Shown here: positions 3,692 to 60,115 of the stretch, in pieces
How positions within the stretch are numbered: position 1 is the stretch's first letter
How the letters are laid out: each line of letters starts with the position of its first letter
Origin: Eledone cirrhosa
Taxonomy: Eukaryota
Assembly (NCBI GenBank): GCA_964016885.1
Contig: OZ024753.1
Span: forward strand, 7,254,001-7,318,000
Direction: 5' to 3'
DNA: 64,000 nt
Position numbers and translations under genes: made by a program
Notes under the pieces: generated by a model
Told to the model about the DNA's origin: nothing
The model's input: only the letters and a program-made list of their open reading frames with translations
The model's database searches: none

Positions 3692-6600
3692 TCACTTCAT
3701 CTTATATTCAGAAACTAACAATGCTAGAGACTGGCCAAGTAGTACTTTCGTGAAGGTATCCTTTCCCCACAGCCAGTAAGTTAACATTTCTCCAATGCCT
3801 TTTACTTTTATCATGCCTCTTGCTTCCATAGTATATCCCCCTAAATCTTCAAGTATCCTGGCTGTAACCTCACTCATATGAATTCGAAGATCATAACAAT
3901 TGGATTCCATCCTGGCAGCTGTGTTCACCGTATCTCCAAACAAACAATACCTAGGCATAAGTTTGCCTACCACGCCACCTACTACAGGGCCAGAATGTAT
4001 TCCACATCGTAACTGTAAAGTAGATTTTGGCATGTGCGGTATTTCAAACGTTGTCACCATAGACATCAAATCCAAAGCCATGGTTGCAATTTCTCCAACA
4101 TGGCGGTTCTCATTCTTCCCCGGGGAGACCACTGACCACCATATTCGAATCAGTTATAGTTTCCACTTTATAAACATCGTAATCATCGAGAATTCGATCG
4201 AAGGCATTATAAGTCTCATTCAACAATTCCACAATCTGTAATGCCTTACTGTCTTTGCATATATTAGAGAAATTGGCGATATCACTGAAAAATACTGTGA
4301 CGCAATCAAAATATTCCGGATCGGTTTTGTTTCCATTTTTTATTTCGTCTGCTACTTTCGCTGGAAGCATGTGACTAAGTAGCTGTTCTGCTCTAGCTTT
4401 GCTCATTTCAAGTTCTTGTGTTCGTTCGAAAACAACTAATTCTAAACTGTTAGAATACGTTTCCAACAGGCTAATCAAATTGTCTATAAGCTCACCTTTC
4501 CTAGGATATATGTTTTTAAGTCTTGTATAAATTTTATGGAAAACAGGCCTTGCTGAAGGTTTCACGTGCCAACAGTCCTCGATCAACTTCCGAAATGATG
4601 AATGCGTCTGAGGTTGTGGTGGAAAGAGGTCGTATTTTGTTATTGGTCTTGTATAGATCATTTCTTCTCCAATATCTTTCCAAACTCGTCGGGCCATCTT
4701 CTTTCTTTCATGTCTTATTAGACCCAATATTGAAGACGCTGTTAAAAATTGTAGTTCATACACATAAGGAAGTTCTCGTGTAATGATTTCGCATGCGACT
4801 ATCGCGTATGAATAAACATCTCCTAGCGGCGTCCCTCCTTTAACTTCATCTAAACATGACACGTTTAATAACAATTCTGGAGCTGTCTAAAAAAGTTCGT
4901 TTGAAACAGGCGTTGTTTCATCCGGGATTCTGTGCTCTCCAAATCGAATGTAATGTGCCCCAAATCCGCTCAGACGTACACACCAACGGATATCTACTGA
5001 ACAATTCGAAGATTTCAATCGGCCATGTGACTTAATTTGTGAGACGTCGTGTAGGAATTCATAAACATTATTCAATACGATTCCTTTGTAACGAACTACT
5101 ACTATTTGGTGCCAATTCCGCTGTTCCAAGGCCAGAAAAACCGTGTCTACAATACTGTTTTCACTCCAGCAGACTCTGTTGAAAAAGCGATATGTATCCC
5201 TGTTTGAAAACTCATTATCTGTGTTAACTGTTGAAATAAATGGCAAATGTGCTTTCAAAAGTAATGGGTTCATGGCTCTGGTGATCTCTGCTGGCAACGT
5301 ACTGATAATTAAACGTACCGTGTCATAACGCATGGAATTAATACCGGAAGTCATATTCATTAAGCTTTTATATGCAGTAGATCTTTTACGTCGACTGATT
5401 TCACATTTAACAATATCCCCTATCTTTTTAATAGGAAGCTTTTATGCCACTGTTGACGTGATTCGTAGCTAAACGAATGAATGAGTTCACGTGAGATTCA
5501 ACATTTTTCTACGTGCCACTGCCCTCAAGTTCCCCGAAGTGCACAATTGTTAAATTTCCTCGGACACTAAACACCGGAGTTGTATAGGAAGCATTTTCAT
5601 AACCTGTAGGGTGCACTGTTATTTGTACTTTTTCTGTTATCTTGCAGATTGCTATATGTATTAAAACAAATCCCTTATTTAAATTTGGAGAGCTTTCACG
5701 AATCATACAAACTCCAGCTGGTACAGATATAAAAGATAATTTCAATTTTGAATGTCTCCCAGAAAAGATACGACGTCCATCGAGATCTACTGCTTTCAGT
5801 GAAAATACCCCTGGTATAGAGAAACCTAATAATATAGGAATAGTTTTTGTTTTGGGATCTCTCAGCATATTCCACCTCTCCTCTACATTGCGCGCGGGCA
5901 CCAATCTCGCTAGCCGTTGTTCTCTGGATCGCATTCTGGATGTGAAAGTCGTAGGTAAGATGGAAATTCGTTCAAAAACAGAGGAAGGGGTGTACATTCT
6001 ATATTTTTTGTCACTGGAAACATGTCAAATTAAAATCCATACAGCAAGTTGGACAACGTGGAATTCTAGAATAAGGATCACGTGACATAGTCATTGTTAG
6101 ATTCAACCGAAACAGGTTAACAGACTCAAGAATTCGAATATTTGTAAAAACAACTTTACCCATCTCAGCCCGTTTCCGAACCAATCGGTCCCGGGTGTGA
6201 GATGTATCAAAGCGTCATCAGTGTCCAACGTAATTTCTGATTCAGCTAAAATATTTTCTCTTTCTCTGTTGGCGTAAAATTTCTTATAAGCGTAGGGTAC
6301 TGTTAATATAACATATGCTACCGAATCAAGGCCTTCCGTTACAGGATGGTCATAAATATCACGAATTTCGGCTTCAAAATGGAAGTTACGGTTTGCTATA
6401 ACAGAACAAGGTGGCTGTTTCGTAATGGTCAAGTGATGTGCAGGAGTTGTTATACGGATGGGATAAGTATCTAGTTTTATCTTATACACCAGTATCTCAA
6501 TTCTTAATATTCGATTGTTGGGCGGTAATGTTGAATGCTGATGGTAAATCTAGTCAATGATAATTTCTTGGTCAATCACTTCAACGTTCAGTTGAATTTT

Positions 6601-6976
6601 AGAGTGCTACTGCATAATCTCTGTTTAATCGCTCTGGATAGTTAAGCCACCATGCTGATTTCTGACACAACATACCTCCATTTTCTGCCCAAGTGTCCGA
6701 TACACTTTTGTTTTTGAGTTTTTTAATATCTAATAATGTCACGCGTGCTGTTATATTCCTTGAGTTCGGCTTAGGATCTGTTCCGTTCACATATTTCAAA
6801 TATACAATTATTGGTTTGCTAATAGTTTGATTCAATAGAACAGAGTAATAGAGCTGACGTGGATCGGAAGGAATGTTTTTTGGAAGCCTATAATTTTCTT
6901 TAAATGTTAGCATGTACATACCGTAATGAGAAGGACAGATACCTAATAGGATAAAAATAAACCGCAGAGGTGTCAT
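3692..6976 (-). pseudogene. Decayed intronless paralogue of the receptor guanylyl cyclase
   Basis: ORF pieces 6599-6976, 6103-6489, 5509-5997, 4887-5360, 4110-4874 and 3692-4132 are collinear with the intact gene (WAENGGMLCQKSAWWLNYPER, HLTITKQPP, SHGRLKSSNC, MPRYCLFGDTVNTAARM). They are broken by several stops and frameshifts and by a large internal deletion at 5060/5061. Confidence 0.9.
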
Positions 6977-7027: not shown

Positions 7028-7346
7028 CCTATCCTGGAAACGACATCCCACCTTGTCTAAAATCTATGGCAAACTCCCTCGAGCCTCTGCCCTTCTAAAA
7101 TCCCGGAGAGCTCAATTTGCTGGCCACTGTCACCGTGCCAGCAATGAAATCATATCCGCTCTCTTGCTCTGGAACCCTGACTCCAGCCTGACTAGGAGTA
7201 GGAAGCTGTCATTCCCTGACGTTATCTCTAGGGATACGGGAATCAGTAGACAGGACCTGGGGGCAGCGATGGGGGACAGGGAATTCTGGGGCATGAGAGT
7301 GAGATCCATCATCTCGACAGTAGTCGACGAGTGATAATGATGATGA
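7028..7346 (+). mobile_element. RTE-clade LINE 3' fragment (family 2)
   Basis: RRAQFAGHCHRA...LLLWNP motif and (TGA)n tail. Inserted about 50 bp upstream of the pseudogene ATG. Confidence 0.8.
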
Positions 7347-7769
7347 TATCGTGAATATATTTTCATTTCGGTGTTTAGAAATGGCCTGTCTATGGTAAAT
7401 ACTCTCAAGCGAACATTTCCAAGCACTGGCTGCATCAATCTGAGCAGAAAGAACGAAAGAAATAGTCACATCTCTCATTTTATTCTTTGCGTGGATATAG
7501 ATATGTGGTTGCGTTTGTGCGTGTATGTTTCTGTATATGTCTTTGTGTGAGGTGTGTGTGTGTGTGTGTATGTTCCTGCGTGTGTGTTTTTGTCTGTGTG
7601 TTTGCGTTTGTGCGTGTGTTTGTTTGTGCATATGTGTCTTTGTGTGCGTACATATCTGTGTGTATATGTGTCTACGTTTGTGTGTGTGTGTGAGCGCGCG
7701 CGCGTTTTTTTAAATTGATGTAGCATGTCGGAATTGTTAAAATATGCGTTTCGCAAACATTAGGTCCCT

Positions 7770-8211
7770 GGTGTAATGCCACAGTGTGGCATGTTGGGTA
7801 AGAGGGATTTACCGCAGCCGTGTTTCCCCGGTGTAATTCCACAGTGTGCCATGTTGGGTAAGAGTGATTTACCACAGCCTTGTTTCCCCGGTGTAATACC
7901 ACAGTGTGCCATGTTGGGTAAGAGGGATTTACCACAGCCTTGTTTCCTGGTGTAATACCACAGTGTGCCATGTTGGGTAAGAGGGATTTACCACAGCCGT
8001 GTTTCCCCGGTGTAATTCCACAGTGTGCCATGTTGGGTAAGAGTGATTTACCACAGCCTTGTTTACCCGGTGTAATACCACAGTGTGCCATGTTGGGTAA
8101 GAGGGATTTACCACAGCCTTGTTTCCTGGTGTAATACCACAGTGTGCCATGTTGGGTAAGAGGGATTTACCACAGCCCTGGTTTCCTGGTGTAATGTCAC
8201 AATGTGCCATA
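7770..8211. repeat. 59-60 bp minisatellite, about 7.5 copies
   Basis: Unit GGTGTAATACCACAGTGTGCCATGTTGGGTAAGAGGGATTTACCACAGCCTTGTTTCCCC. Confidence 0.95.
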
Positions 8212-8214
8212 TCA

Positions 8215-9220
8215 TCCCCTTCCATCATCTACTGTCTTGCTCCGGGAAAATCTATCTAAAGCGAGGTTCTGCCAGTCTTCTCCGATATTTTCATCTTTTT
8301 CAGTGTGCTTTTAATACAATCCCTATGCTTCAACTTTGGTTTGTGCGGTGGTCATTTACCTTCGACCAGCTTATCATACAGGAACTGCCTTGGGTTACGA
8401 TCCTCATCCATTCTCAGTACATGACCACACCATCTTAATCAATGTTGAAATATGAAAGACTCTATACCGGTACATCGACTATATTCGAGGAGTCCAGTGT
8501 CACTCAAGTACATTTTCCAGTGGATGCCCTGTACACGTTGAAGACACTGTTGCTGAAAGTGTTCCAGCCTTTTGGGGTGTCTTTGGTAAGTGACCCAAGT
8601 TTCAGATGCATACAACAAAGAGGAGAAAACACAAGCATTATAAACTTTCAACTTTGCCTCATGCTTTCCAGATGCATCACTTACCTTCTTGATTCGGAAG
8701 GAGATTTCTTCATCCAGAGTATTTGTCATATTCACAGTGTTGCCAAGATGCATAAACATATGACCAGAGACACTTATGTTTGGTGTAGAGTAAGTTTTGC
8801 CTGGTGCAGATTGGTACAACATCATAGACATTTTCAGACTGATTGTTAGGCTCAATGCACCGCATGCTTTCGAAAAAGATTCATGAGATGTTGCATGTCA
8901 CTCTCAGAATGAGCGACAACATCTCAGTCGTCAGCTTACAGGAGTTCATGTATCAGCGATGAAAATATTTCGTTCTGACATCAAACCTTCTTATATTGAA
9001 CATGTTACCTGTTGTTCGATATTTAATGTAGACCCCGTGTGAGCAAGCTTCAAAAGCCATCAGGAAAACCATAGCAAAGACCAACGCAAACAGAGTCGGT
9101 GCCCAAATATCTCATTGCTTAACACCATTTTCAACCACAATAGGATCATGGGAGGTTACCACTCATTTTAACAGTTAACTTCATTCCAGCATGGAAACCT
9201 CTCATCACAGAGTACAATCT
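8215..9220 (-). mobile_element. Degenerate RTE/BovB-like LINE RT fragment
   Basis: GVKQ..APTLF, LL*ADD, LTISLK and KLKVYNACVFSSLLYASETW motifs, interrupted by stops. Confidence 0.75.
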
Positions 9221-9590
9221 GTCATCATCATCATCATTCGTCGACTACTGTCGAGATGATGGATCTCACCCTCATGCCCCAGAATTCTCTGTCCCCCATC
9301 GCTGCCCCCAGGTCCTGTCTACTGATTCCCGTATCCCTAGAGATAACGTCAGGGAATGACAGCTACCTACTCCTAGTCAGGCTGGAGTCAGGGTTCCAGA
9401 GCAAGAGAGCGGATATGATTTCATTGCTGGCACGGTGACAGTGGCCAGCAAATTGAGCTCTCCGGGATTTTAGAAGGGCAGAGGCTCGAGGGAGTTTGCC
9501 ATAGATTTTAGACAAGGTGGGATGTCGTTTCCAGGATAGGTTTTGCGCTCTCATTAAGAGGCGGGTATATGTGCCATCCAATCTCCTCTT
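9221..9590 (-). mobile_element. RTE-clade LINE 3' fragment (family 2)
   Basis: Near-identical reverse complement of 7028-7346, extended by DGTYTRLLMRAQNLSW. Confidence 0.8.
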
Positions 9591-12487: not shown

Positions 12488-15400
12488 ATGGCTGTTGCAT
12501 GTTTCTTTTTTATATCTACGTTGATGCTTGTGACTGGACAAAACATATCATTACAATTTCAACAGGATTACCATCCTCCAATGACACCGTCTGCTGATGC
12601 TAAAGAATGGAATTATTCAGTACCACTCAACCAAATCATATTCAGGCCTATAATTGTGTTAATTGTTTCAAACCATACACTTGTTACAAACGGGGATGTG
12701 TTAAATTCGATGGCGACAGTAAACTCTTTACCTCATCCGCCATCTAATAACGACAGTTGGGCAGAGAGTGGCGGGGAATTATGTCAGAACTCTGCTTGGT
12801 GGCTGGAATATCCGGAGCGCTACAACAGACAACAAGCCAAGGTTCGCTGCGTATCACCTCAATCGCCTTCTCTTATGAAATCACCAATTTTTAAAGGAAA
12901 GATTATAATCGATAGGATTTACCATACGCATACCTTAGTGCCTCCAACCAAACGAATTCTAAGGATCAGCATACCGGATTATGAAATATCAATTGATACC
13001 AATCCTTTCAGTGTTACAAAGCCTGCGAACCATTTAGCAATAACGAAACAGCCACCGCTAAGTGTTTTAGCTAATCACGATTTTGATGTTGAGGTGGAAA
13101 TCAGAGGCGATGATGATAAACTTCTTCGAGATGGTATTGATTCTGTTGCATATGTTCAAATGTCAATTCCTTATAATTATAAATTATTTTATGCGGACCG
13201 AGAACGGGAAATGTTACTTGCTTCAAGTGAAATTCGTCTGCAAGGAGAGAATGTAATTACTGATTTCAAAACTCAAGATATGATATTTCGTCAAAGAGCA
13301 ACAAATGGTCAGGTAAATTTTACCGGTGTTCGTATTTTAGATATTGTAGATGATTTACAGTTAAATATTACGTTAACCATGGGAAAACCTCCATGGGAAA
13401 GAATTCCTGCTTGTCTAGAATGCTTCACTGACATAGAACTTGCAAGACGGCTTGTAAATAACAGCAAGTTTATTACATTCAAGCGACTAACACCGGAAGA
13501 AGAAGAAAAGATTCTACCGATTAGTTTCACGAGGAATTTTACTGTTATAGCTCAAACTGTGGCTAAACTTGTAGAAACCAAAAAAGTACAACGGATGTTT
13601 GTTCTTTCGACGAATAATGAAACCGGTCTAATCGATGCTTCTATTGCTCATCCTATAATAAATGGTATTTGTATTGATGCATTAGATTCGTCAGACCGTC
13701 ACATCTATTCAGGCCCAAATTCAAAGATGTCTTTAACTGTAGAAACAGATCCAACGGATATACCATTTCTAATTGATAAATCGACGAATATGATCGAAGG
13801 ACATAGTAGTGTGTTTGTATCAATAGGTGTATTAACCGACTCTGTCAGATTGAAAATATATTCTAAAAGGTACAATGTTTCTTATTTAAGTCCCGCCTTT
13901 CGTATAATAGGGAACATCACAATTGGACATTTTGGTCGCATTCAAGGCAATGCCCCTGAAAGTGGTATGGACTCACATATCAATACTTTCATCCGATTCG
14001 CCATAAACGATGTTAACAATGGCCTTATTGTCCCGAAGTTAAGTAAGAAAGGAATACATTTGAATTTGCGAACGGTTAACATTCCACTAGAACAATACCC
14101 AACCAACATAAAGCTTAGAGGTGGGATACATAATTCCTCTAATATTCGTTTTGCTATAATTTCAGTTCCTGATACTATATCCAAGTCTTTAGCGAAGCAT
14201 AATATTCCATTTATTAGAACAGGTACTTCCACAGAATTATCCAATAGTCATTTAAACCCCCATCATAATACGATATCTTGGTCAGATGAAACAATATGGG
14301 ATTCGGCGTTTCAGGCTATCAAAGAAAGACTTTGGACTGATATTCTCATAATTAAATATGAAGATATTAATTTACCTGACATATTCTATTCTATGGCTGC
14401 CAAATACAACATTAGCATACGTTATCGTTTTACTATTAAACAGCTAAAATATGTAAGCCCTAGGTATATTAATGATGGACTATTGCTGCACAGAATGAGG
14501 CAGATTAGTGAAACTAAACTTAAAATATTCTTTCTATTTGTGCCAGCCCACATACAGCCTATCGTCCTTCGAGAAGCCTATCTCGCGGGCCTTTCTTCCT
14601 TGAATGGATTCCAATGGATTTTATTCGGAAAGTATGCAAACGCGTTTCCTTTTGAAAACCAGTCTGTTTGCCGTCGTAAAATGGAATGTACATTAGCATT
14701 TTCTGGAACGTACCTTTATGTTCCGACCTACAATGTATCAGGTTACCAAACAGAAAATTGGAAACGAGTCCTAAATTATTACTTTAAAGAAGACCGTGCA
14801 CTTCACAGAGGTGTAAATATTGCTTATCATCCATTTGAAGAAGGCGCACTAATGGGATTGGGTTATGATGCTGTGCACCTTTATGCGAAAGCTCTCTTGA
14901 CACTAATTGAGAAAAATCAGATAATGAAATCTCAATTATTTACTTTGATTTTGCGTGAAATTACTATAGATGGACTAACCGGTAAAATACATTTAGATCA
15001 CTATGGAAACAGGATTGGCTTTTTCAGCTACCTAGCCCAAATTAACCCAATGCCACGTTGGCCTCATATGCCGAAACAAAATGTTTTAACGTTTGTTAAG
15101 TGTATAATGAGGATGGAAGATGGTATCCAATTAGAAATTCCTTACCAGACAAGAATGGTTTCACGCAATAATTCTATGGCAGCTTTATTTTCCACCGAAG
15201 GGCAGATATATAACACTAGACGATACATATCTTTCTCGGGAATGGTTGGACTCAATACACAAATGATGATGCCAGTAGAGGAGGAACCATGGCCACCGCG
15301 CATTATAATCCGGAAAGAATCTGTACTCGCACCTTACGCATGTAATTTTAAATGTGGTGACAAATTAAAAGATCCTAATAATGTTAATGTTTTTGATCGA

Positions 15401-17506
15401 GGCGAATGTATGCCAAATGGTAAATGCAAATGTTTTGATGGATATTTTGGAAAATCCTGTAAGAACGCCATGTGCCAATGCAAATATGGTGTATGCTTTA
15501 ACCGCACTTACTGCATTTGTCATAAAGGCTATAGTGGAAGTATATGCGGAAAGCCATTTTGTGCCTTTTGTAAACATGGTGTATGTGTAGCATATAATGT
15601 GTGTAAATGCAACAGTGTTTTTTATATTGGTAAATTTTGTGACGCTCACATTTTTAGCATCTTTGTGCCATTGATTTTGGGAATTATTCTTATGATTGGT
15701 TTGTCATATTTCTTCATATCAATAAAAGAACGAGAGTACAATACAGAAGCCAAACAAGAATGGCTGGTTGATTGGAACTCAGTGGACCAACATGTAACGA
15801 CAGTTGTGATCGGGCACAAAGGAGGAACTAGCAAAAAGGTTGCAATTTATGAATGGAAAGAACAGAACTGGTATATTAAGAGAATACCTAACAGGACAAT
15901 CCCTCCAGATGATAAAAAGGTTATTTCAGAAATGCTACAGTTAACAAAATCAAGGCATTATAACCTCATCCAATATGGAGGGTGTTGTTTGACATACCCT
16001 AATGTCAGCTTATTTTTGGAAGTTGCTGATAAAGGTAGTATTACAGATATTCTTGCTAATGAAACTTTTGAGATAGGATGGGAGTTTGGATTTTCATTTT
16101 TAAAGGATATATGTTCTGGCATGGAATTTTTGCACGACAAATCCGAAATAAAATCTCATGGACGTCTAAAATCTTCAAATTGCTTGGTTGACAAGCGCTG
16201 GACTGTACGCCTCTCAGGATTTGGTGCACCGACTATTCGCTACGGCAACTACAGAATTAGAGACAATCAAGAATTGCCTTCATTAATAGAACTCTTTTGG
16301 ACTGCACCCGAACTACTGGGGGATAATACAACTCTAGATGGCATCAAATCTGGTACACCGCAAGGAGATGTTTATTCATTTTCTATCATCGCCTGTGAAA
16401 TAGCCACAAAAGCAAGTCCATACAGTTATGAATTACAATATTTAAATGAAAAATCTATTTTAAACCTCGTCAGAAATACATCAAATCCGGCAAATAAACA
16501 TATACGTCGTGTATGGGAGAATATTGGTGGTGCTAAAATGATTTTTGCGAGACCTATTTTGAAGGAACATCTATTACCACACAGTAAACTTTCCAGAAAA
16601 CTGTTTAAAAAAATGCTTGAAGAATCTTGGAATGAAAAAGCAACATCAAGACCGACTTTCAGTAAACTTGGTTTCATTCTGAATCAAATGCACCCCATTA
16701 AAGGAGAACTTATTGATAAATTAATCCACCTATTAGAAACTTACTCTAATAATTTGGAAGTGATAGTAGTAGAAAGGACCAAAGAATTAGAATTGAATAA
16801 AGCTAAAGCGGAGCAATTACTGAGCCAGATGTTACCAGTAAAAGTAGCCAATGAGTTAAAGCAGGGTGGTAAAGTAATGCCTGAATTATTCGAATGTGCT
16901 ACAGTATTTTTCAGTGATATCGTGAATTTTGGCCGAATATGTAGAGAAAGTAAACCAATGGAAATAGTTGATTTTTTAAATGAGATTTATAATGAATTTG
17001 ATGCAGTCTTAGATGATTATGATGTTTATAAAGTAGAATCAATCTGTGATTCTTACATGGTTGTAAGCGGTATACCCGAGAAAAATGAAGATCGTCATGC
17101 TGGAGAAATTGCGACCATGGCTTTAGATATGATGTCACATGTTACTGGGCTCGAAATTTCTCACATGAGAAGTAAAGCACTCCAATTACGTATCGGAATG
17201 CATTCTGGCCCGGTAGTAAGTGGAGTGGTGGGGAAGCTAATGCCTAGATATTGTCTTTTCGGAGACACCGTGAACACTGCCTCTAGGATGCAATCTAGTT
17301 CTTACGCCTTACGTATTCAAGTGAGCGAGAACACTGCAGCACTTCTCGTAGCTTTAGGTGGATATAAATTAGAATGTAGAGGTAAAAGAGATGTGAAGGG
17401 GCGTGGCATTATGACAACGTACTGGTTGTGGGGTAAGGACACATTTGCAAAGGAACTTCCAGATCTATCACTCGCAGTGCCTCTTACAGAACACAAGTTC
17501 AAATAA
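12488..17506 (+). CDS. Single-exon receptor (transmembrane) guanylyl cyclase with Ig-like, ANF-receptor/PBP1 and EGF-like ectodomain
   Basis: 1672-aa uninterrupted ORF. Signal peptide MAVACFFFISTLMLVTG. ANF-receptor-like motifs (FAINDVN, YDAVHLYAKAL, GLTGKIHLDHYGNR). Three EGF-like Cys repeats (aa ~974-1051). TM helix IFSIFVPLILGIILMIGLSYFFISI. Kinase-homology domain (HGRLKSSNC, WTAPE, GDVYSF). Dimerisation helix (YSNNLE..V.ERT). Cyclase motifs FSDIV, KVE..D, MPRYCLFGDTVNTASRM. Confidence 0.95.
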   Translation: MAVACFFFISTLMLVTGQNISLQFQQDYHPPMTPSADAKEWNYSVPLNQIIFRPIIVLIVSNHTLVTNGDVLNSMATVNSLPHPPSNNDSWAESGGELCQNSAWWLEYPERYNRQQAKVRCVSPQSPSLMKSPIFKGKIIIDRIYHTHTLVPPTKRILRISIPDYEISIDTNPFSVTKPANHLAITKQPPLSVLANHDFDVEVEIRGDDDKLLRDGIDSVAYVQMSIPYNYKLFYADREREMLLASSEIRLQGENVITDFKTQDMIFRQRATNGQVNFTGVRILDIVDDLQLNITLTMGKPPWERIPACLECFTDIELARRLVNNSKFITFKRLTPEEEEKILPISFTRNFTVIAQTVAKLVETKKVQRMFVLSTNNETGLIDASIAHPIINGICIDALDSSDRHIYSGPNSKMSLTVETDPTDIPFLIDKSTNMIEGHSSVFVSIGVLTDSVRLKIYSKRYNVSYLSPAFRIIGNITIGHFGRIQGNAPESGMDSHINTFIRFAINDVNNGLIVPKLSKKGIHLNLRTVNIPLEQYPTNIKLRGGIHNSSNIRFAIISVPDTISKSLAKHNIPFIRTGTSTELSNSHLNPHHNTISWSDETIWDSAFQAIKERLWTDILIIKYEDINLPDIFYSMAAKYNISIRYRFTIKQLKYVSPRYINDGLLLHRMRQISETKLKIFFLFVPAHIQPIVLREAYLAGLSSLNGFQWILFGKYANAFPFENQSVCRRKMECTLAFSGTYLYVPTYNVSGYQTENWKRVLNYYFKEDRALHRGVNIAYHPFEEGALMGLGYDAVHLYAKALLTLIEKNQIMKSQLFTLILREITIDGLTGKIHLDHYGNRIGFFSYLAQINPMPRWPHMPKQNVLTFVKCIMRMEDGIQLEIPYQTRMVSRNNSMAALFSTEGQIYNTRRYISFSGMVGLNTQMMMPVEEEPWPPRIIIRKESVLAPYACNFKCGDKLKDPNNVNVFDRGECMPNGKCKCFDGYFGKSCKNAMCQCKYGVCFNRTYCICHKGYSGSICGKPFCAFCKHGVCVAYNVCKCNSVFYIGKFCDAHIFSIFVPLILGIILMIGLSYFFISIKEREYNTEAKQEWLVDWNSVDQHVTTVVIGHKGGTSKKVAIYEWKEQNWYIKRIPNRTIPPDDKKVISEMLQLTKSRHYNLIQYGGCCLTYPNVSLFLEVADKGSITDILANETFEIGWEFGFSFLKDICSGMEFLHDKSEIKSHGRLKSSNCLVDKRWTVRLSGFGAPTIRYGNYRIRDNQELPSLIELFWTAPELLGDNTTLDGIKSGTPQGDVYSFSIIACEIATKASPYSYELQYLNEKSILNLVRNTSNPANKHIRRVWENIGGAKMIFARPILKEHLLPHSKLSRKLFKKMLEESWNEKATSRPTFSKLGFILNQMHPIKGELIDKLIHLLETYSNNLEVIVVERTKELELNKAKAEQLLSQMLPVKVANELKQGGKVMPELFECATVFFSDIVNFGRICRESKPMEIVDFLNEIYNEFDAVLDDYDVYKVESICDSYMVVSGIPEKNEDRHAGEIATMALDMMSHVTGLEISHMRSKALQLRIGMHSGPVVSGVVGKLMPRYCLFGDTVNTASRMQSSSYALRIQVSENTAALLVALGGYKLECRGKRDVKGRGIMTTYWLWGKDTFAKELPDLSLAVPLTEHKFK

Positions 17507-19101
17507 ATCCCGCTGAGCCGACAGTCAGATATATACCAACATATATATGTGAAGAATATGTATAGACAGACACACATATATACACACCCACGCACTCATA
17601 CACATGCGTGCGCGTATAAACGTTGTTCAGAAATTAATTCAGGTTTTTCAACAATGATTTTACACCCACATATCTAATTCCAGGATAAACTTTATTAACC
17701 GAAATAAAAGCCATTACAAATGACAATTTTTGCCAACAGTAACTTCGAATTCTCAAGTGCTAGAGGCGATGAATTCTTTAAAAGTTTACTTTACAACTAA
17801 TCCGTTGTAGAAAACATTTCCTAATAAGAAGTTGTCAACAAAATGTCTGAAAATGTCTAAATATGATTGGGGAAACATCCGGGTTTTATATTAAATAAAT
17901 CAGAGAGTCGTTTCCTAATTCGTTCAACAACCATAGCGTTGAATGTGCAATTAATAATCGAGCAGTGTCAAACTCTATCTTAAATAAACTAGTGTTTTAC
18001 AAGCAAAACAATATCTATAAATAAATGGGCCAATCTGTATTATTGATAAAAAAATTATCTAAAACTCTACCCTACAATACTTCTATCTCAATAAACCAAT
18101 ATTACTATATTCCTATAGATCGTAAAGCACACAATTTAACAAACTAATTTGTCACCAAACTGCCACGGACTTACATACGTCAACCACAAAATATATTTAC
18201 ATATACCTCAACAAATCGGGAGATTCACGAAGCTAATGAATGAAGAACTGTACTTCAACAATCAAAAGCCCTACAAATCTATAATAATAATAATAATCAA
18301 TAAATAATTCAACAAACAAATTACACCACTAATTAGTCGAATAGCAGTGACAAACTTTAATGATTTTTTTCTGTAATGAGAAACACAACCATAAATGCAA
18401 TCTCCGGGAAAGCCAAGAAATGAGAGAACTTTCCACATTGTAATAGGCGTTATATAGTAGGTCATATATTTCTAACCGTTAGTAAAAGTATCAACAGAAC
18501 AATATATATTCTGCTATCCTCTATTATAATGTGATTCATATTGGTTCATAATATAAGGGTATGGTTGCACAGAGCCAATATTTGCAAAGTAAAAAAAGTT
18601 TACATACGATATCCATCTTCTTCACAAATGGCTGTGATCACAGCTTCGCATTTCTGCTGACTCTAAGTTATAGGGCTTGAAATGGGAGGAAATTGTCAAA
18701 GCAATGAACTAAATGGAACGTATTTCTCCCCCCATTAATCTAAAGTTCTTACTTCAAGTCATGCTGAGTGGACAAAAGGAAAATGACTTAATTACTATTT
18801 GTTGATTTAAATGGGATTTTGCTCATCCAAATATGTGGCCCATGTGATGATAGTAGATGTGTTTTTTATAATTGTTTACCTAGTGTTAAGTGTCCGCCTT
18901 AATGACACATAGTACCCTGTTGATAATTGTTTCTATTGACTTTTTTCTGTTTTCTTTGCTTTTCTTGTGTTACTAATACCACCTATTTTTGCAACACATT
19001 GTATATAGTATTAAAGAATATTTTTCCCTAATCATCATGAATTATTAAATGATATTTTATTAAGAAATCTAATCTACATATTAACCTATCTACCCATATA
19101 A

Positions 19102-40101: not shown

Positions 40102-41944
40102 ACAAGTTGCCAGAGTATATGGCCACAAGTTGCCAGAGTAGATGGCCACAAGTTGCCAGAGTAGATGGCCACAAGTTGCCAGAGTATATGGCCACAAGTT
40201 GCCAGAGTATATGGCCACAAGTTGCCAGAGTATATGGCCACGAGTTGCCAGAGTATATGGCCACGAGTTGCCAGAGTAGATGGCCACATGTTGCCAGAGT
40301 AGATGGCCACATGTTGCCAGAGTAGATGGCCACAAGTTGCCAGAGTATATGGCCACAAGTTGCCAGAGTAGATGGCCACATGTTGCCAGAGTAGATGGCC
40401 ACATGTTGCCAGAGTAGATGGCCACAAGTTGCCAGAGTAGATGGCTACAAGTTGCCAGAGTAGATGGCCACAAGTTGCCAGAGTAGATGGCCACATGTTG
40501 CCAGTGTAGATGGCCACAAGTTGCCAGAGTAGATGGCCACAAGTTGCCAGAGTAGATGGCCACAAGTTGTCAGAGTAGATGGCCACAAGTTGCCAGAGTA
40601 GATGGCCACAAGTTGCCAGAGTAGATGGCCACAAGTTGCCAGAGTAGATGGCCACAAGTTGCCAGAGTAGATGGCCACAAGTTGCCAGAGTAGATGGCCA
40701 CAAGTTGCCAGAGTAGATGGCCACAAGTTGCCAGAGTAGATGGCCACAAGTTGCCAGGGTATATGGCCACGAGTTGCCAGAGTAGATGGCCACAAGTTGC
40801 CAGAGTAGATGGCTACAAGTTGCCAGAGTAGATGGCCACAAGTTGCCAGAGTAGATGGCCACATGTTGCCAGAGTAGATGGCCACAAGTTGCCAGAGTAT
40901 ATGGCCACAAGTTGCCAGAGTAGATGGCTACAAGTTGCCAGAGTAGATGGCCACAAGTTGCCAGAGTAGATGGCCACATGTTGCCAGGGTATATGGCCAC
41001 AAGTTGCCAGAGTAGATGGCTACAAGTTGCCAGAGTAGATGGCCACAAGTTGCCAGAGTAGATGGCCACATGTTGCCAGAGTAGATGGCCACAAGTTGCC
41101 AGAGTAGATGGCCACAAGTTGTCAGAGTAGATGGCCACAAGTTGCCAGAGTAGATGGCCACAAGTTGCCAGAGTAGATGGCCACAAGTTGCCAGAGTAGA
41201 TGGCCACAAGTTGCCAGAGTAGATGGCCACAAGTTGCCAGAGTAGATGGCTACAAGTTGCCAGAGTAGATGGCCACAAGTTGCCAGAGTAGATGGCCACA
41301 AGTTGCCAGAGTAGATGGCCACAAGTTGCCAGAGTAGATGGCCACAAGTTGCCAGAGTAGATGGCCACAAGTTGCCAGAGTAGATGGCCACAAGTTGCCA
41401 GAGTAGATGGCCACAAGTTGCCAGGGTATATGGCCACGAGTTGCCAGAGTAGATGGCCACAAGTTGCCAGAGTAGATGGCTACAAGTTGCCAGAGTAGAT
41501 GGCCACAAGTTGCCAGAGTAGATGGCCACATGTTGCCAGAGTAGATGGCCACAAGTTGCCAGAGTAGATGGCCACAAGTTGCCAGAGTAGATGGCCACAA
41601 GTTGCCAGAGTAGATGGCTACAAGTTGCCAGAGTAGATGGCCACAAGTTGCCAGAGTAGATGGCCACATGTTGCCAGAGTAGATGGCCACAAGTTGCTAG
41701 AGTAGATGGCCACAAGTTGCCAGAGTAGATGGCCACATGTTGCCAGAGTAGATGGCCACAAGTTGCCAGAGTAGATGGCCACAAGTTGCCAGAGTAGATG
41801 GCCACAAGTTGTCAGAGTAGATGGCCACAAGTTGCCAGAGTAGATGGCCACAAGTTGCCAGAGTAGATGGCCACAAGTTGCCAGAGTAGATGGCCACAAG
41901 TTGCTAGAGTAGATGGCCACAAGTTGCCAGAGTAGATGGCCACT
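40102..41944. repeat. 23-bp minisatellite, about 80 copies
   Basis: Unit AAGTTGCCAGAGTAGATGGCCAC, highly homogeneous, with no spacers. Confidence 0.97.
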
Positions 41945-42420: not shown

Positions 42421-42422
<2 letters not shown>

Positions 42423-43050
42423 AGGGCGGGTAAAATTCCCGAGATCCATGGACGAGTTCTCTCCAGCGGTCTCTGTCCCTCATTATCGCTGCCATGTCCT
42501 GCGTCTCCAACAGACCAGTGTCTGTCCTTAGGGCATCAACATACGTTAACCTTGGTCTTCCTCTTCCAGTGTGTCCATGTAGGGGCTCCCACAGGAGCAC
42601 TGAGTGCAATGTCAACTCTGGATGTCGGTGAGCATGTCCAGCTAACCTCAGTCTCCTCTGTGTCACTTTTGAGGTGACTTTTGGGATGCTCCCATACAGC
42701 TCTGAGTTTTTCATCCTCAGTGTATACTGATTAATGTTCAGAGCCATCTTCGGCATTCTCGTGTAGCACCCATCCACCATCTGAGTGGGTTTCTTGGTCA
42801 GTGTCCAAGTCTCAGACCCATACAGCAGCACAGACTCCACTACATCAATGAAGAGGCGGATTTTCAGGTCTTCACGATGGTCCGACTTCCACACCGATCT
42901 CAATCTGTGGCTTTGCTCTTCCTCTCAACCACATCAACTTCCGTATTCCCAATCTTTGCTCCAAAATACAGGAAGTGCTCAACCAATTCTAGCGGCTTCC
43001 CGCCTACATTAGTGATCCCCTTTGGCTTCTCAACATTCTCTACCAGATAT
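42421..43050 (-). mobile_element. RTE-clade LINE 3' fragment (family 1)
   Basis: LLYGSETWTLT...LRLAGHAHRH...GRPRLTYVD. Ends CCGCCCTAG followed by (TA)n. Confidence 0.85.
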
Positions 43051-59280: not shown

Positions 59281-59689
59281 ACAACAGCCACCCAACTGAG
59301 CTGGGATTGAATTTGCTCTTGTTGCTGATGTGGTTGTTATTGTTGTATGTGTGTACTTTTATATCCATATAGTTTTAGTTAAATACACAGTTTATGCTGA
59401 ACTTTCATCCCAGATGGATTGCCAGAAGACGGTTATTTTGTTTTGAGTGTATGTTTCGTCTATTTCGTTTATTTAAAAAATATTTTAAGATCTATCAGAC
59501 ATTAACTTTGAAGGTAAGAATATATAATCTTTCTTATTTGTCTAAATATATATATAGAGAGAGAAATTGCCTCGAAACCACTAGGTGTATCTGAGGAACT
59601 TGCGAATCCAGAGTCAGGTTCGATCCACAAACAGATCGCACTTCGAGCTGTTCGCCGGAGAAACAATTGTAATACGTAATAAATATATT

Positions 59690-60113
59690 GCTGTAGAGGC
59701 GCCTGTGCTGCTGTACGGGTCTGAGACTTGGACACTGACCAAGAAACTCACTCAGATGGTGGATGGGTGCTACACGAGAATGCTGAGGATGGCTCTGAAC
59801 ATTAATCAGTATACACTGAGGATGAAAAACTCAGAGCTGTATGGGAGCCTCCCAAAAGTCAGCTCAAAAGTGACGCAGAGGAGACTGAGGTTAGCTGGAC
59901 ATGCTCACCGACATCCAGAGTTGACATCGCACTCAGTGCTCCAGTGGGAGCCCCTGCATGGACACACTGGAAGAGGAAGACCAAGGTTAACGTATGTTGA
60001 TGCCCTAAGGACAGACAATGGTCTGTTGGAGACGCAGGACATGGCAGCGATAATGAGGGACAGAGACCACTGGAGAGAACTCGTCCATGGATCTCGGAAA
60101 TTTTACCCGCCCT

Positions 60114-60115
<2 letters not shown>
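59690..60115 (+). mobile_element. RTE-clade LINE 3' fragment (family 1)
   Basis: Near-identical to 42421-42850 in the opposite orientation. Ends CCGCCCTAG followed by (AT)n. Confidence 0.85.

What the first reader, a model, noticed from the sequence alone, without database searches (positions are those of the whole stretch)
12488..17506. Intron-free 5-kb receptor guanylyl cyclase CDS
Seen: signal peptide through cyclase in one reading frame, free of repeats despite a TE-saturated neighbourhood, which suggests purifying selection. Established: animal receptor guanylyl cyclases normally have many coding exons. Octopus chemotactile receptors are a precedent for intronless, clustered, lineage-specific sensory genes. 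Inference: a retroposition-derived or intron-purged receptor family, possibly sensory or reproductive.
Basis: partly seen in the sequence, partly recalled or inferred. Interest (0 to 1): 0.7.

Follow-up and report, generated by a model that had tools for sequence, protein, structure and literature searches.

The report
Intron-free half-site octopus receptor cyclase
This octopus-type gene encodes, in one unbroken 5-kb reading frame, a large cell-surface receptor of the cGMP-making kind from an old, little-studied family, and it likely works as a mixed pair with an equally intron-free sister gene that has lost the opposite half of the enzyme's active site; its signal and tissue are untested.

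Summary
In detail: window 12488-17506 (+) is one open frame of 1,672 codons, from signal peptide through three Ig-like domains, a Venus-flytrap domain, EGF repeats, one membrane helix and a kinase-homology domain to a guanylyl cyclase. Ten of ten other guanylyl cyclase loci fetched from this genome are split by introns. The family is not octopus-specific: bivalve and centipede members exist, and their database models hint at introns. This genome holds only three copies, all intron-free: this gene (type A), a dead neighbour in the window, and a type B gene on another contig. Type B has lost the Cys, Asn, Arg and Lys that one subunit gives the active site but keeps the other half intact and is highly conserved. 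Type A keeps those residues but has altered the opposite half (phosphate loop, glycine before the second Asp). The bivalve protein has both halves. Best reading: an ancient loss of introns, then a duplication that split a homodimeric receptor into an A/B heterodimer with one active site. Pairing, activity, ligand and tissue are untested. Repeat-freeness is no evidence of selection: the dead neighbour is as clean.

The parts
12488..17506 (+). Intact intron-free CDS of a receptor guanylyl cyclase, type A1, 1,672 aa
12488..12538 (+). Signal-peptide-like N-terminus, aa 1-17
   Evidence: sequence; matches the start of O. bimaculoides P0006 and of family members; no signal-peptide predictor was run
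12539..13909 (+). Three tandem Ig-like beta-sandwich domains, about aa 18-178, 179-356, 357-474; no Pfam family
   Evidence: AlphaFold model pLDDT 86.7; Foldseek and VIA-align matches to many Ig-like folds, best Z 9-10, none standing out
13913..15097 (+). Venus-flytrap (ANF receptor, periplasmic-binding type I) domain, about aa 476-870; likely ligand-binding part
   Evidence: Pfam PF01094 E 1.4e-14; model matches mGluR, GABA-B and LivK folds, E about 1e-17
15341..15640 (+). Cysteine-rich stalk with three EGF-like repeats, aa 952-1051; 18 cysteines invariant in 18 of 18 aligned rows
15650..15718 (+). Single transmembrane helix, about aa 1055-1077
   Evidence: hydropathy peak 2.63 at 1055
15821..16669 (+). 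Kinase-homology domain (HGRLKSSN motif), aa 1112-1394
16700..16858 (+). Dimerisation helix; position 1437 is N or K in type A but E in type B and the bivalve
16883..17428 (+). Guanylyl cyclase domain, aa 1466-1647; all eight named catalytic residues present (D1477, D1521, R1568; E1517, C1589, N1596, R1600, K1637)
16916..16933 (+). Altered phosphate loop after the first metal Asp: D-I-V-N-F-G where canonical cyclases have D-I-V-G-F-T
17045..17050 (+). Cys in place of the canonical Gly before the second metal Asp (C1520-D1521)
17252..17287 (+). Intact Cys...Asn...Arg stretch (1589-1600), the half that type B has lost
3692..6976 (-). Dead, also intron-free paralogue (type A2), divergently oriented: 4 in-frame stops, 6 frameshifts and a 583-codon deletion that removes half the flytrap domain, the EGF repeats and the membrane helix
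12383..12399 (+). Splice-acceptor-like pyrimidine tract and AG about 89 nt before the ATG; possible 5' UTR intron, untested
   Evidence: sequence
17502..17708 (+). Two AATAAA hexamers (17502-17507 overlapping the stop; 17703-17708); use untested
   Evidence: sequence

Best explanation
This is an intact, intron-free gene for a single-pass receptor guanylyl cyclase with an Ig-like/Venus-flytrap/EGF ectodomain, and it likely supplies one half of the active site in a mixed dimer with its type B sister gene, which would supply the other half. Shown: the architecture; three intron-free copies in this genome; type B lacks Cys, Asn, Arg and Lys of one half-site and keeps the metal and phosphate half; type A keeps the former and has changed the loop and glycine of the latter; the bivalve protein has both. 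Inferred: the ancestor was a multi-exon homodimer; the coding introns were lost once (retrocopy that replaced its parent, or reverse-transcript-mediated loss) before the A/B duplication, which predates the Argonauta-Octopus split; later DNA duplications made A1, A2 and C; an outside ligand would close the flytrap domain, turn the dimer and switch on the single A/B site to make cGMP. Most likely setting, on weak grounds: sperm or testis (about 45%), then sensory cells (about 30%).
For: Residue roles: monomer A gives two Asp and one Arg, monomer B gives Asn, Arg, Lys, Glu, Cys; a P-loop-like site after the first Asp binds phosphate (PMC2576301, passages). Site table: 10 of 10 A-type rows have G1480 as N or D, T1482 changed and G1520 as S or C, while keeping E, N, R and K/R (10 of 10) and C (9 of 10); one of 10 has also lost the second Asp. 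8 of 8 B-type rows lack C, N, R and K; 7 of 8 keep D-G-F-T, G-D and R. Controls: the bivalve, GC-A, GC-C and the multi-exon genes of this genome are canonical (G-D 10 of 10; D-G-F-T 6 of 6 where covered). The B cyclase domain is more conserved than that of A1 (97% vs 83% own genome to O. vulgaris; 87% vs 79% to Argonauta), which a dead domain would not be. A and B are the only intact family members found in this genome, and both types occur in O. vulgaris, O. sinensis, O. bimaculoides, Argonauta and unnamed ENA records. A, B and C group together against bivalve and centipede rows (FastTree support 1.000; 96% bootstrap on the cyclase region). Precedent: ODR-1/DAF-11 (PMC5225109, passages).
Against: Type A keeps all eight named catalytic residues, so the standard test predicts an active homodimer; the loop and glycine changes are not shown to disable it. 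Type B could pair with one of the other canonical receptor cyclases. Rows in the site table share ancestry and are not independent events. Dead members persist as full-length frames in the family (clade C, P0011, Strigamia), so ectodomain or scaffold roles without catalysis are real options. Introns in outgroups are inferred only from skips and odd insertions in gene models. The C-clade placement is unstable in the cyclase-only tree (56%). Long exons are not unique among cyclases here (open frames of 515, 531 and 896 aa). No co-expression or activity data.
Confidence: 0.58

Rival explanations
1. Type A is an ordinary homodimeric receptor cyclase with a tolerated variant loop; type B is a separate pseudo-cyclase or pairs with another cyclase.
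For: All eight catalytic residues are present in the window protein and both Asp are kept in 9 of 10 A rows. Asn or Asp can often replace Gly in loops (recalled).
Against: The changes in A fall on the half-site that B preserves, and T1482 varies freely (G, C, A, S, D); no canonical control shows them. B's half-site is invariant in 7 of 8 rows.
Confidence: 0.25
2. One reading: a lineage-specific, expanded family of sensory receptors made by retroposition, like octopus chemotactile receptors.
For: Intron-free copies, tandem arrays in O. vulgaris, O. bimaculoides and Argonauta (adjacent accessions, fused gene models), fast ectodomain (47-56% identity between A1 orthologues against 72-90% inside the cell).
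Against: The family reaches bivalves and a centipede; only two intact genes here; no intron-bearing parent found; copies arose by DNA duplication of an already intron-free gene.
Confidence: 0.1
3. The family was always intron-poor, so nothing was lost; or the proteins act mainly as non-catalytic adhesion or decoy receptors.
For: No genomic DNA of non-cephalopod orthologues was seen; clade C, P0011 and the centipede protein lack catalytic residues yet are full length.
Against: Exon-sized skips and hydrophobic insertions in Sinanodonta (-82, -54 aa), Strigamia (+35, -35 aa) and Saccostrea (+34 aa) models, and two fragments that cover the same 873-1036 stretch; strict conservation of complementary catalytic halves in A and B.
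Confidence: 0.07

Closest known systems
Receptor guanylyl cyclases GC-A/NPR1 and GC-C
   Same: Flytrap ectodomain, one membrane helix, kinase-homology domain, dimerisation helix, class III cyclase with Glu/Cys guanine residues (best PDB hits E 5.5e-77 and 5.5e-73).
   Different: Ectodomain about 1,040 aa with three Ig-like domains and three EGF repeats; intron-free CDS; altered phosphate loop; those receptors are homodimers.
C. elegans ODR-1/DAF-11 obligate heterodimeric receptor cyclase
   Same: Each monomer is said to provide essential catalytic residues to a single site (PMC5225109, passages).
   Different: No orthology tested; here the two halves trace to one duplication whose unsplit form survives in a bivalve, and pairing is only predicted.
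Soluble guanylyl cyclase alpha/beta and adenylyl cyclase C1/C2
   Same: One active and one dead site from complementary monomers (PMC2576301). B resembles alpha/C1, A resembles beta/C2 (the sGC motifs are recalled, not aligned here).
   Different: Membrane receptor with a ligand-type ectodomain; A still has both metal Asp, so the split looks incomplete on the A side.
Sea urchin sperm resact/speract receptor cyclase
   Same: Database label 'speract receptor-like' for the O. vulgaris models; same intracellular layout.
   Different: Its ectodomain is about 60 kDa (PMC4137060, passage), about half this one; the label is automatic and no orthology or sperm expression was shown.
Octopus chemotactile receptors (recalled)
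   Same: Intron-free coding regions and tandem copies in octopods.
   Different: Unrelated protein class; this family is old and has few copies.

Membership tests
Receptor guanylyl cyclases | Signal peptide, ectodomain, one membrane helix, kinase-homology domain, dimerisation helix, cyclase domain in that order | tested here: met
Receptor guanylyl cyclases | Guanine-specifying Glu and Cys and six catalytic residues | tested here: met
   E1517, C1589, D1477, D1521, R1568, N1596, R1600, K1637
Receptor guanylyl cyclases | Ligand-regulated cGMP synthesis | not testable with these tools
   needs an assay
Canonical homodimeric receptor cyclases | G-F-T loop after the first Asp and Gly before the second Asp | tested here: not met
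   N-F-G and Cys in the window protein; canonical in GC-A, GC-C, the bivalve and all covered multi-exon controls
Obligate heterodimeric receptor cyclases (ODR-1/DAF-11 kind) | A partner with the complementary half-site exists in the same genome | tested here: met
   type B at G000:C2 (L005:7428-2362, minus strand)
Obligate heterodimeric receptor cyclases (ODR-1/DAF-11 kind) | Each subunit is inactive alone | tested here: inconclusive
   predicted for B (four residues lost); A keeps all eight named residues
Obligate heterodimeric receptor cyclases (ODR-1/DAF-11 kind) | Co-expression and physical pairing | not tested
Retrogene | Coding region lacks introns that relatives have | tested here: inconclusive
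   intron-free here; introns in orthologues only inferred from gene-model skips
Retrogene | Intron-bearing parent elsewhere in the genome | tested here: not met
   ectodomain searches gave 3 matches each, all intron-free copies; these searches score only the best candidates, so short exons of a distant parent could be missed
Retrogene | Poly(A) remnant and target-site duplication | tested here: inconclusive
   none seen by eye downstream; not expected after so long
Sperm chemoattractant receptors (resact/speract type) | Expression on sperm flagella and binding of an egg peptide | not testable with these tools
   no RNA run listed; label is automatic

The most novel reading that the evidence does not exclude
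Cephalopods turned an ancient, undescribed Ig-flytrap-EGF receptor guanylyl cyclase into an intron-free obligate A/B heterodimer by splitting the catalytic site between two duplicates, independently of nematode ODR-1/DAF-11, and this pair is the cGMP chemoreceptor of cephalopod sperm, with fast-evolving tandem A copies setting ligand or species specificity and dead C copies acting as modulators.
Probability: 0.22. Interest if true: 0.8.

Novelty: new variant of a known kind. Interest (0 to 1): 0.55.

Why it matters
The intron-free frame alone is a modest curiosity. The useful result is that a homodimer-to-heterodimer transition can be tested directly: the unsplit bivalve enzyme and both cephalopod halves are in hand, and each is a single exon that can be amplified from genomic DNA. 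It also warns that testing the window gene alone may give a false negative. The family's ectodomain (three Ig-like domains, flytrap, EGF stalk) was not found described in the papers searched, and it offers a concrete candidate for an orphan cGMP receptor in cephalopod sperm or sense organs.

Tried and rejected
Expression: no RNA holder listed; three runs of one sample, laid as contigs on the gene, covered 1 of 30 bins and showed nothing. Complex prediction of the A and B flytrap domains was not available, so there is no verdict. dN/dS between orthologues could not be computed (no orthologue DNA); the window gene against the pseudogene differs at 21, 17 and 51% of codon positions 1, 2, 3 in the cyclase, which reflects past constraint only. 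Metagenome locus scan: 68 pattern matches, 0 relatives. ESM Atlas: N-terminal part best 0.88, Ig-like leads only; bivalve protein gave generic receptor cyclases. No solved structure stood out for the Ig-like region. A bacterial promoter scan is irrelevant to an animal gene. O. sinensis gonad paper PMC11202624 (passages and one supplement searched): no gene-level hit; the GO term guanylate cyclase activity was not enriched (p 0.53); it lists a male-biased cGMP phosphodiesterase, which does not bear on this gene; the supplement held may be incomplete. Squid sperm paper PMC5636881 (passages) and oyster kinome paper PMC4883820 (passages) do not describe this family in what was seen. PMC1435932 and PMC9687970, passages only, added nothing on it. 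A recalled paper on an octopus sperm-attracting peptide is not held and was not read. Literature searches; two searches gave 0 papers, the others none whose listing concerns this family; most subscription journals are not covered. Rejected: repeat-freeness as evidence of selection; 'speract receptor' as an identification; the earlier notes' claims about Hydra-like and single-celled members (unnamed rows P0039 and P0066 may be such, not verified).

Full report
Observation. The window holds one open frame from 12488 to 17506 on the plus strand, 1,672 codons, with a stop 15 nt before the ATG. Shuffles give at most 171 stop-free codons in 300 trials. Pfam and hydropathy give, in order, a flytrap (ANF receptor) domain, EGF repeats, one membrane helix, a kinase-homology domain, a dimerisation helix and a guanylyl cyclase. 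The first 460 residues have no Pfam match; an AlphaFold model (pLDDT 86.7, 18 sequences) folds them into three beta-sandwiches that match many Ig-like folds at Z 7-10 with none standing out. A model of aa 18-971 (pLDDT 81.1) matches mGluR, GABA-B and LivK flytraps. Alignment to five relatives shows no insertion over 17 aa, so no in-frame intron is hidden.

Is it unusual in this genome? A search with the cyclase domain gave 38 matches. I fetched 10 of the other guanylyl cyclase loci; in 10 of 10 the domain is split into 2-4 pieces kilobases apart. Some further matches (C6, C17, C26 and others) were not fetched. Against this, two adenylyl-cyclase-like open frames of 515 and 531 aa and an 896-aa frame of another cyclase-like receptor show that long exons occur in cyclase genes here.

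Neighbourhood. A second copy lies at 6976-3692 on the minus strand, head to head with the gene. It is intron-free and dead: 4 stops, 6 frameshifts, a 583-codon deletion. It is closer to the A2 type (67-78% in the intracellular part) than to the window gene (59-67%). A1 and A2 types carry adjacent accessions in O. vulgaris and Argonauta, so the linkage is old. No further copy was found in 60 kb upstream, 20 kb downstream or 99 kb around the C2 gene.

Family. Three own-genome searches with ectodomain parts or a full-length relative found the same three loci: this gene, the pseudogene and a full-length intron-free gene on C2 (1,688 aa, 37% identical). These counts are lower bounds. Database searches gave octopod proteins with automatic names (speract receptor-like, gcy-4-like, ANP receptor-like), several of them fused models of tandem genes, and a bivalve protein of the same architecture, Potamilus KAK3576183.1. 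An ectodomain profile against 1.84 billion representatives gave 41 hits at E up to 1e-30, many EGF-only; of the 150 listed I examined 21 whose best stretch or score pointed beyond the EGF repeats, and looked up names for 9: Sinanodonta, Saccostrea, Argonauta, the centipede Strigamia, and five unnamed ENA, JGI or Logan records. So the family is at least protostome-wide by these names. Trees place A1, A2, B and C together against bivalve and centipede rows (FastTree 1.000, rooted on two unnamed distant rows; cyclase-region tree with six multi-exon outgroups, 96%; unrooted careful tree). Unnamed ENA rows of both A and B type branch deeper than Argonauta, so the A/B split is older than the Argonauta-Octopus split. 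Long branches (bivalve, centipede, C) make exact placements unsure; no one-clade test was run.

Intron history. All three copies here are intron-free, so the simplest history is one loss before the A/B duplication. That outgroups have introns is inferred, not seen: their models show exon-sized skips and hydrophobic insertions (Sinanodonta -82 and -54 aa; Strigamia +35 in the kinase and -35 in the cyclase; Saccostrea +34), and two unnamed fragments span the same 873-1036 stretch. No parent with introns was found, so retroposition with loss of the parent and in-place intron loss cannot be told apart. Acceptor-like tracts before the starts of both A1 and B leave room for a 5' UTR intron.

Active site. 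Each cyclase site is built from two monomers: one gives two metal Asp and an Arg plus a phosphate-binding loop, the other gives Asn, Arg, Lys and the guanine-reading Glu and Cys (PMC2576301, passages). The bivalve protein has all of them. In 8 of 8 B-type rows Cys, Asn, Arg and Lys are replaced, while 7 of 8 keep the other half unchanged (P0011 has lost both Asp). In 10 of 10 A-type rows Glu, Asn, Arg and Lys/Arg are kept (Cys in 9 of 10), while the loop Gly is Asn or Asp, the loop Thr is G, C, A, S or D, and the Gly before the second Asp is Ser or Cys; one row has lost that Asp. Rows left out as partial, fused or near-duplicate: P0002, P0006, P0008, P0012, P0019, P0021, P0023 (P0002 also shows the Asp-to-Ala change). 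Controls are canonical: GC-A, GC-C, and the multi-exon genes (G-D 10 of 10, D-G-F-T 6 of 6 where covered). Over aa 1401-1650, 21 bivalve residues are kept only by B and 22 only by A among 5 B and 8 A rows. The B cyclase is more conserved than the A1 cyclase between the same species (97 vs 83%, 87 vs 79%, 87 vs 77%) although it should be inactive as a homodimer. Four C-type rows are degenerate in both halves. The rows share ancestry, so these counts describe one or a few events held by selection, not many.

Mechanism. Most likely the window protein (beta-like) pairs with type B (alpha-like) through the dimerisation helix to form one complete site; ligand binding to the flytrap domains, held out on EGF stalks and capped by Ig-like domains, would be relayed through the kinase-homology domains to that site (relay by analogy with known receptor cyclases, recalled). 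B's need for a partner is a strong inference. That A is the partner, and that A needs B, is weaker, because A keeps all eight named residues. I give the heterodimer 0.58. Tissue and ligand are unknown; the lean towards sperm rests on the sea urchin precedent (PMC4137060, passages), the faster ectodomain and the recalled tendency of intron-free copies to be testis-expressed, none of it specific.

Known and new. It is a member of the receptor guanylyl cyclases, fails the loop test for a canonical homodimer, and works, if right, like ODR-1/DAF-11 (PMC5225109, passages) and soluble cyclase alpha/beta. Ten literature searches listed no paper on this family; coverage excludes most subscription journals, and supplements other than one were not seen. 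Two earlier AI notes on the C2 gene reach the same half-site reading; my note of it came first, and they are not independent support. Verdict: real, a new variant of a known kind, interest 0.55.

Noticed in passing
L021:7051-4361 (G000:C1, minus strand): An 896-aa open frame with a PBP_like_2 (phosphate-binding-protein-like) ectodomain, membrane helix, kinase-homology domain and a degenerate cyclase domain: a second long-exon receptor pseudo-cyclase of a different ectodomain type.
   Followed up: partly
L019:5047-6642 and L020:5025-6572 (G000:C28): Two open frames of 531 and 515 aa that look like the second and first halves of a membrane adenylyl cyclase, each in one exon, about 160 kb apart.
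   Followed up: no
L006:7800 to L009 (G000:C2, about 10 kb upstream of the type B gene): A minisatellite of more than 20 kb with an 18-nt unit that reads open in several frames.
   Followed up: no
window 7035-7340 and 8230-9580: LINE-like fragments between the two paralogues, including a near-identical stretch present twice in opposite orientation (about 7030-7340 and 9230-9540), and a 60-nt tandem array at 7765-8210.
   Followed up: no
window 40102-41943: Tandem array of a 23-nt unit, 80 copies, 96% matches.
   Followed up: no
window 42421-42924 and 59585-60115: Two near-identical LINE reverse-transcriptase 3' fragments on opposite strands; the same element occurs in L020.
   Followed up: no
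database proteins P0002, P0003, P0007, P0013: O. vulgaris models of 1,866-3,279 aa are fusions of neighbouring tandem genes, so copy number and structure of this cluster are mis-annotated in public data.
   Followed up: partly
database proteins P0017, P0018, P0022, P0023, P0026 (clade C): A conserved full-length subfamily with both halves of the cyclase site degenerate; no copy found in this genome.
   Followed up: partly
L023:6449-8254 (G000:C27): A multi-exon receptor cyclase whose last exon reads on into about 600 aa of low-complexity, Q/D/H-rich tail.
   Followed up: no
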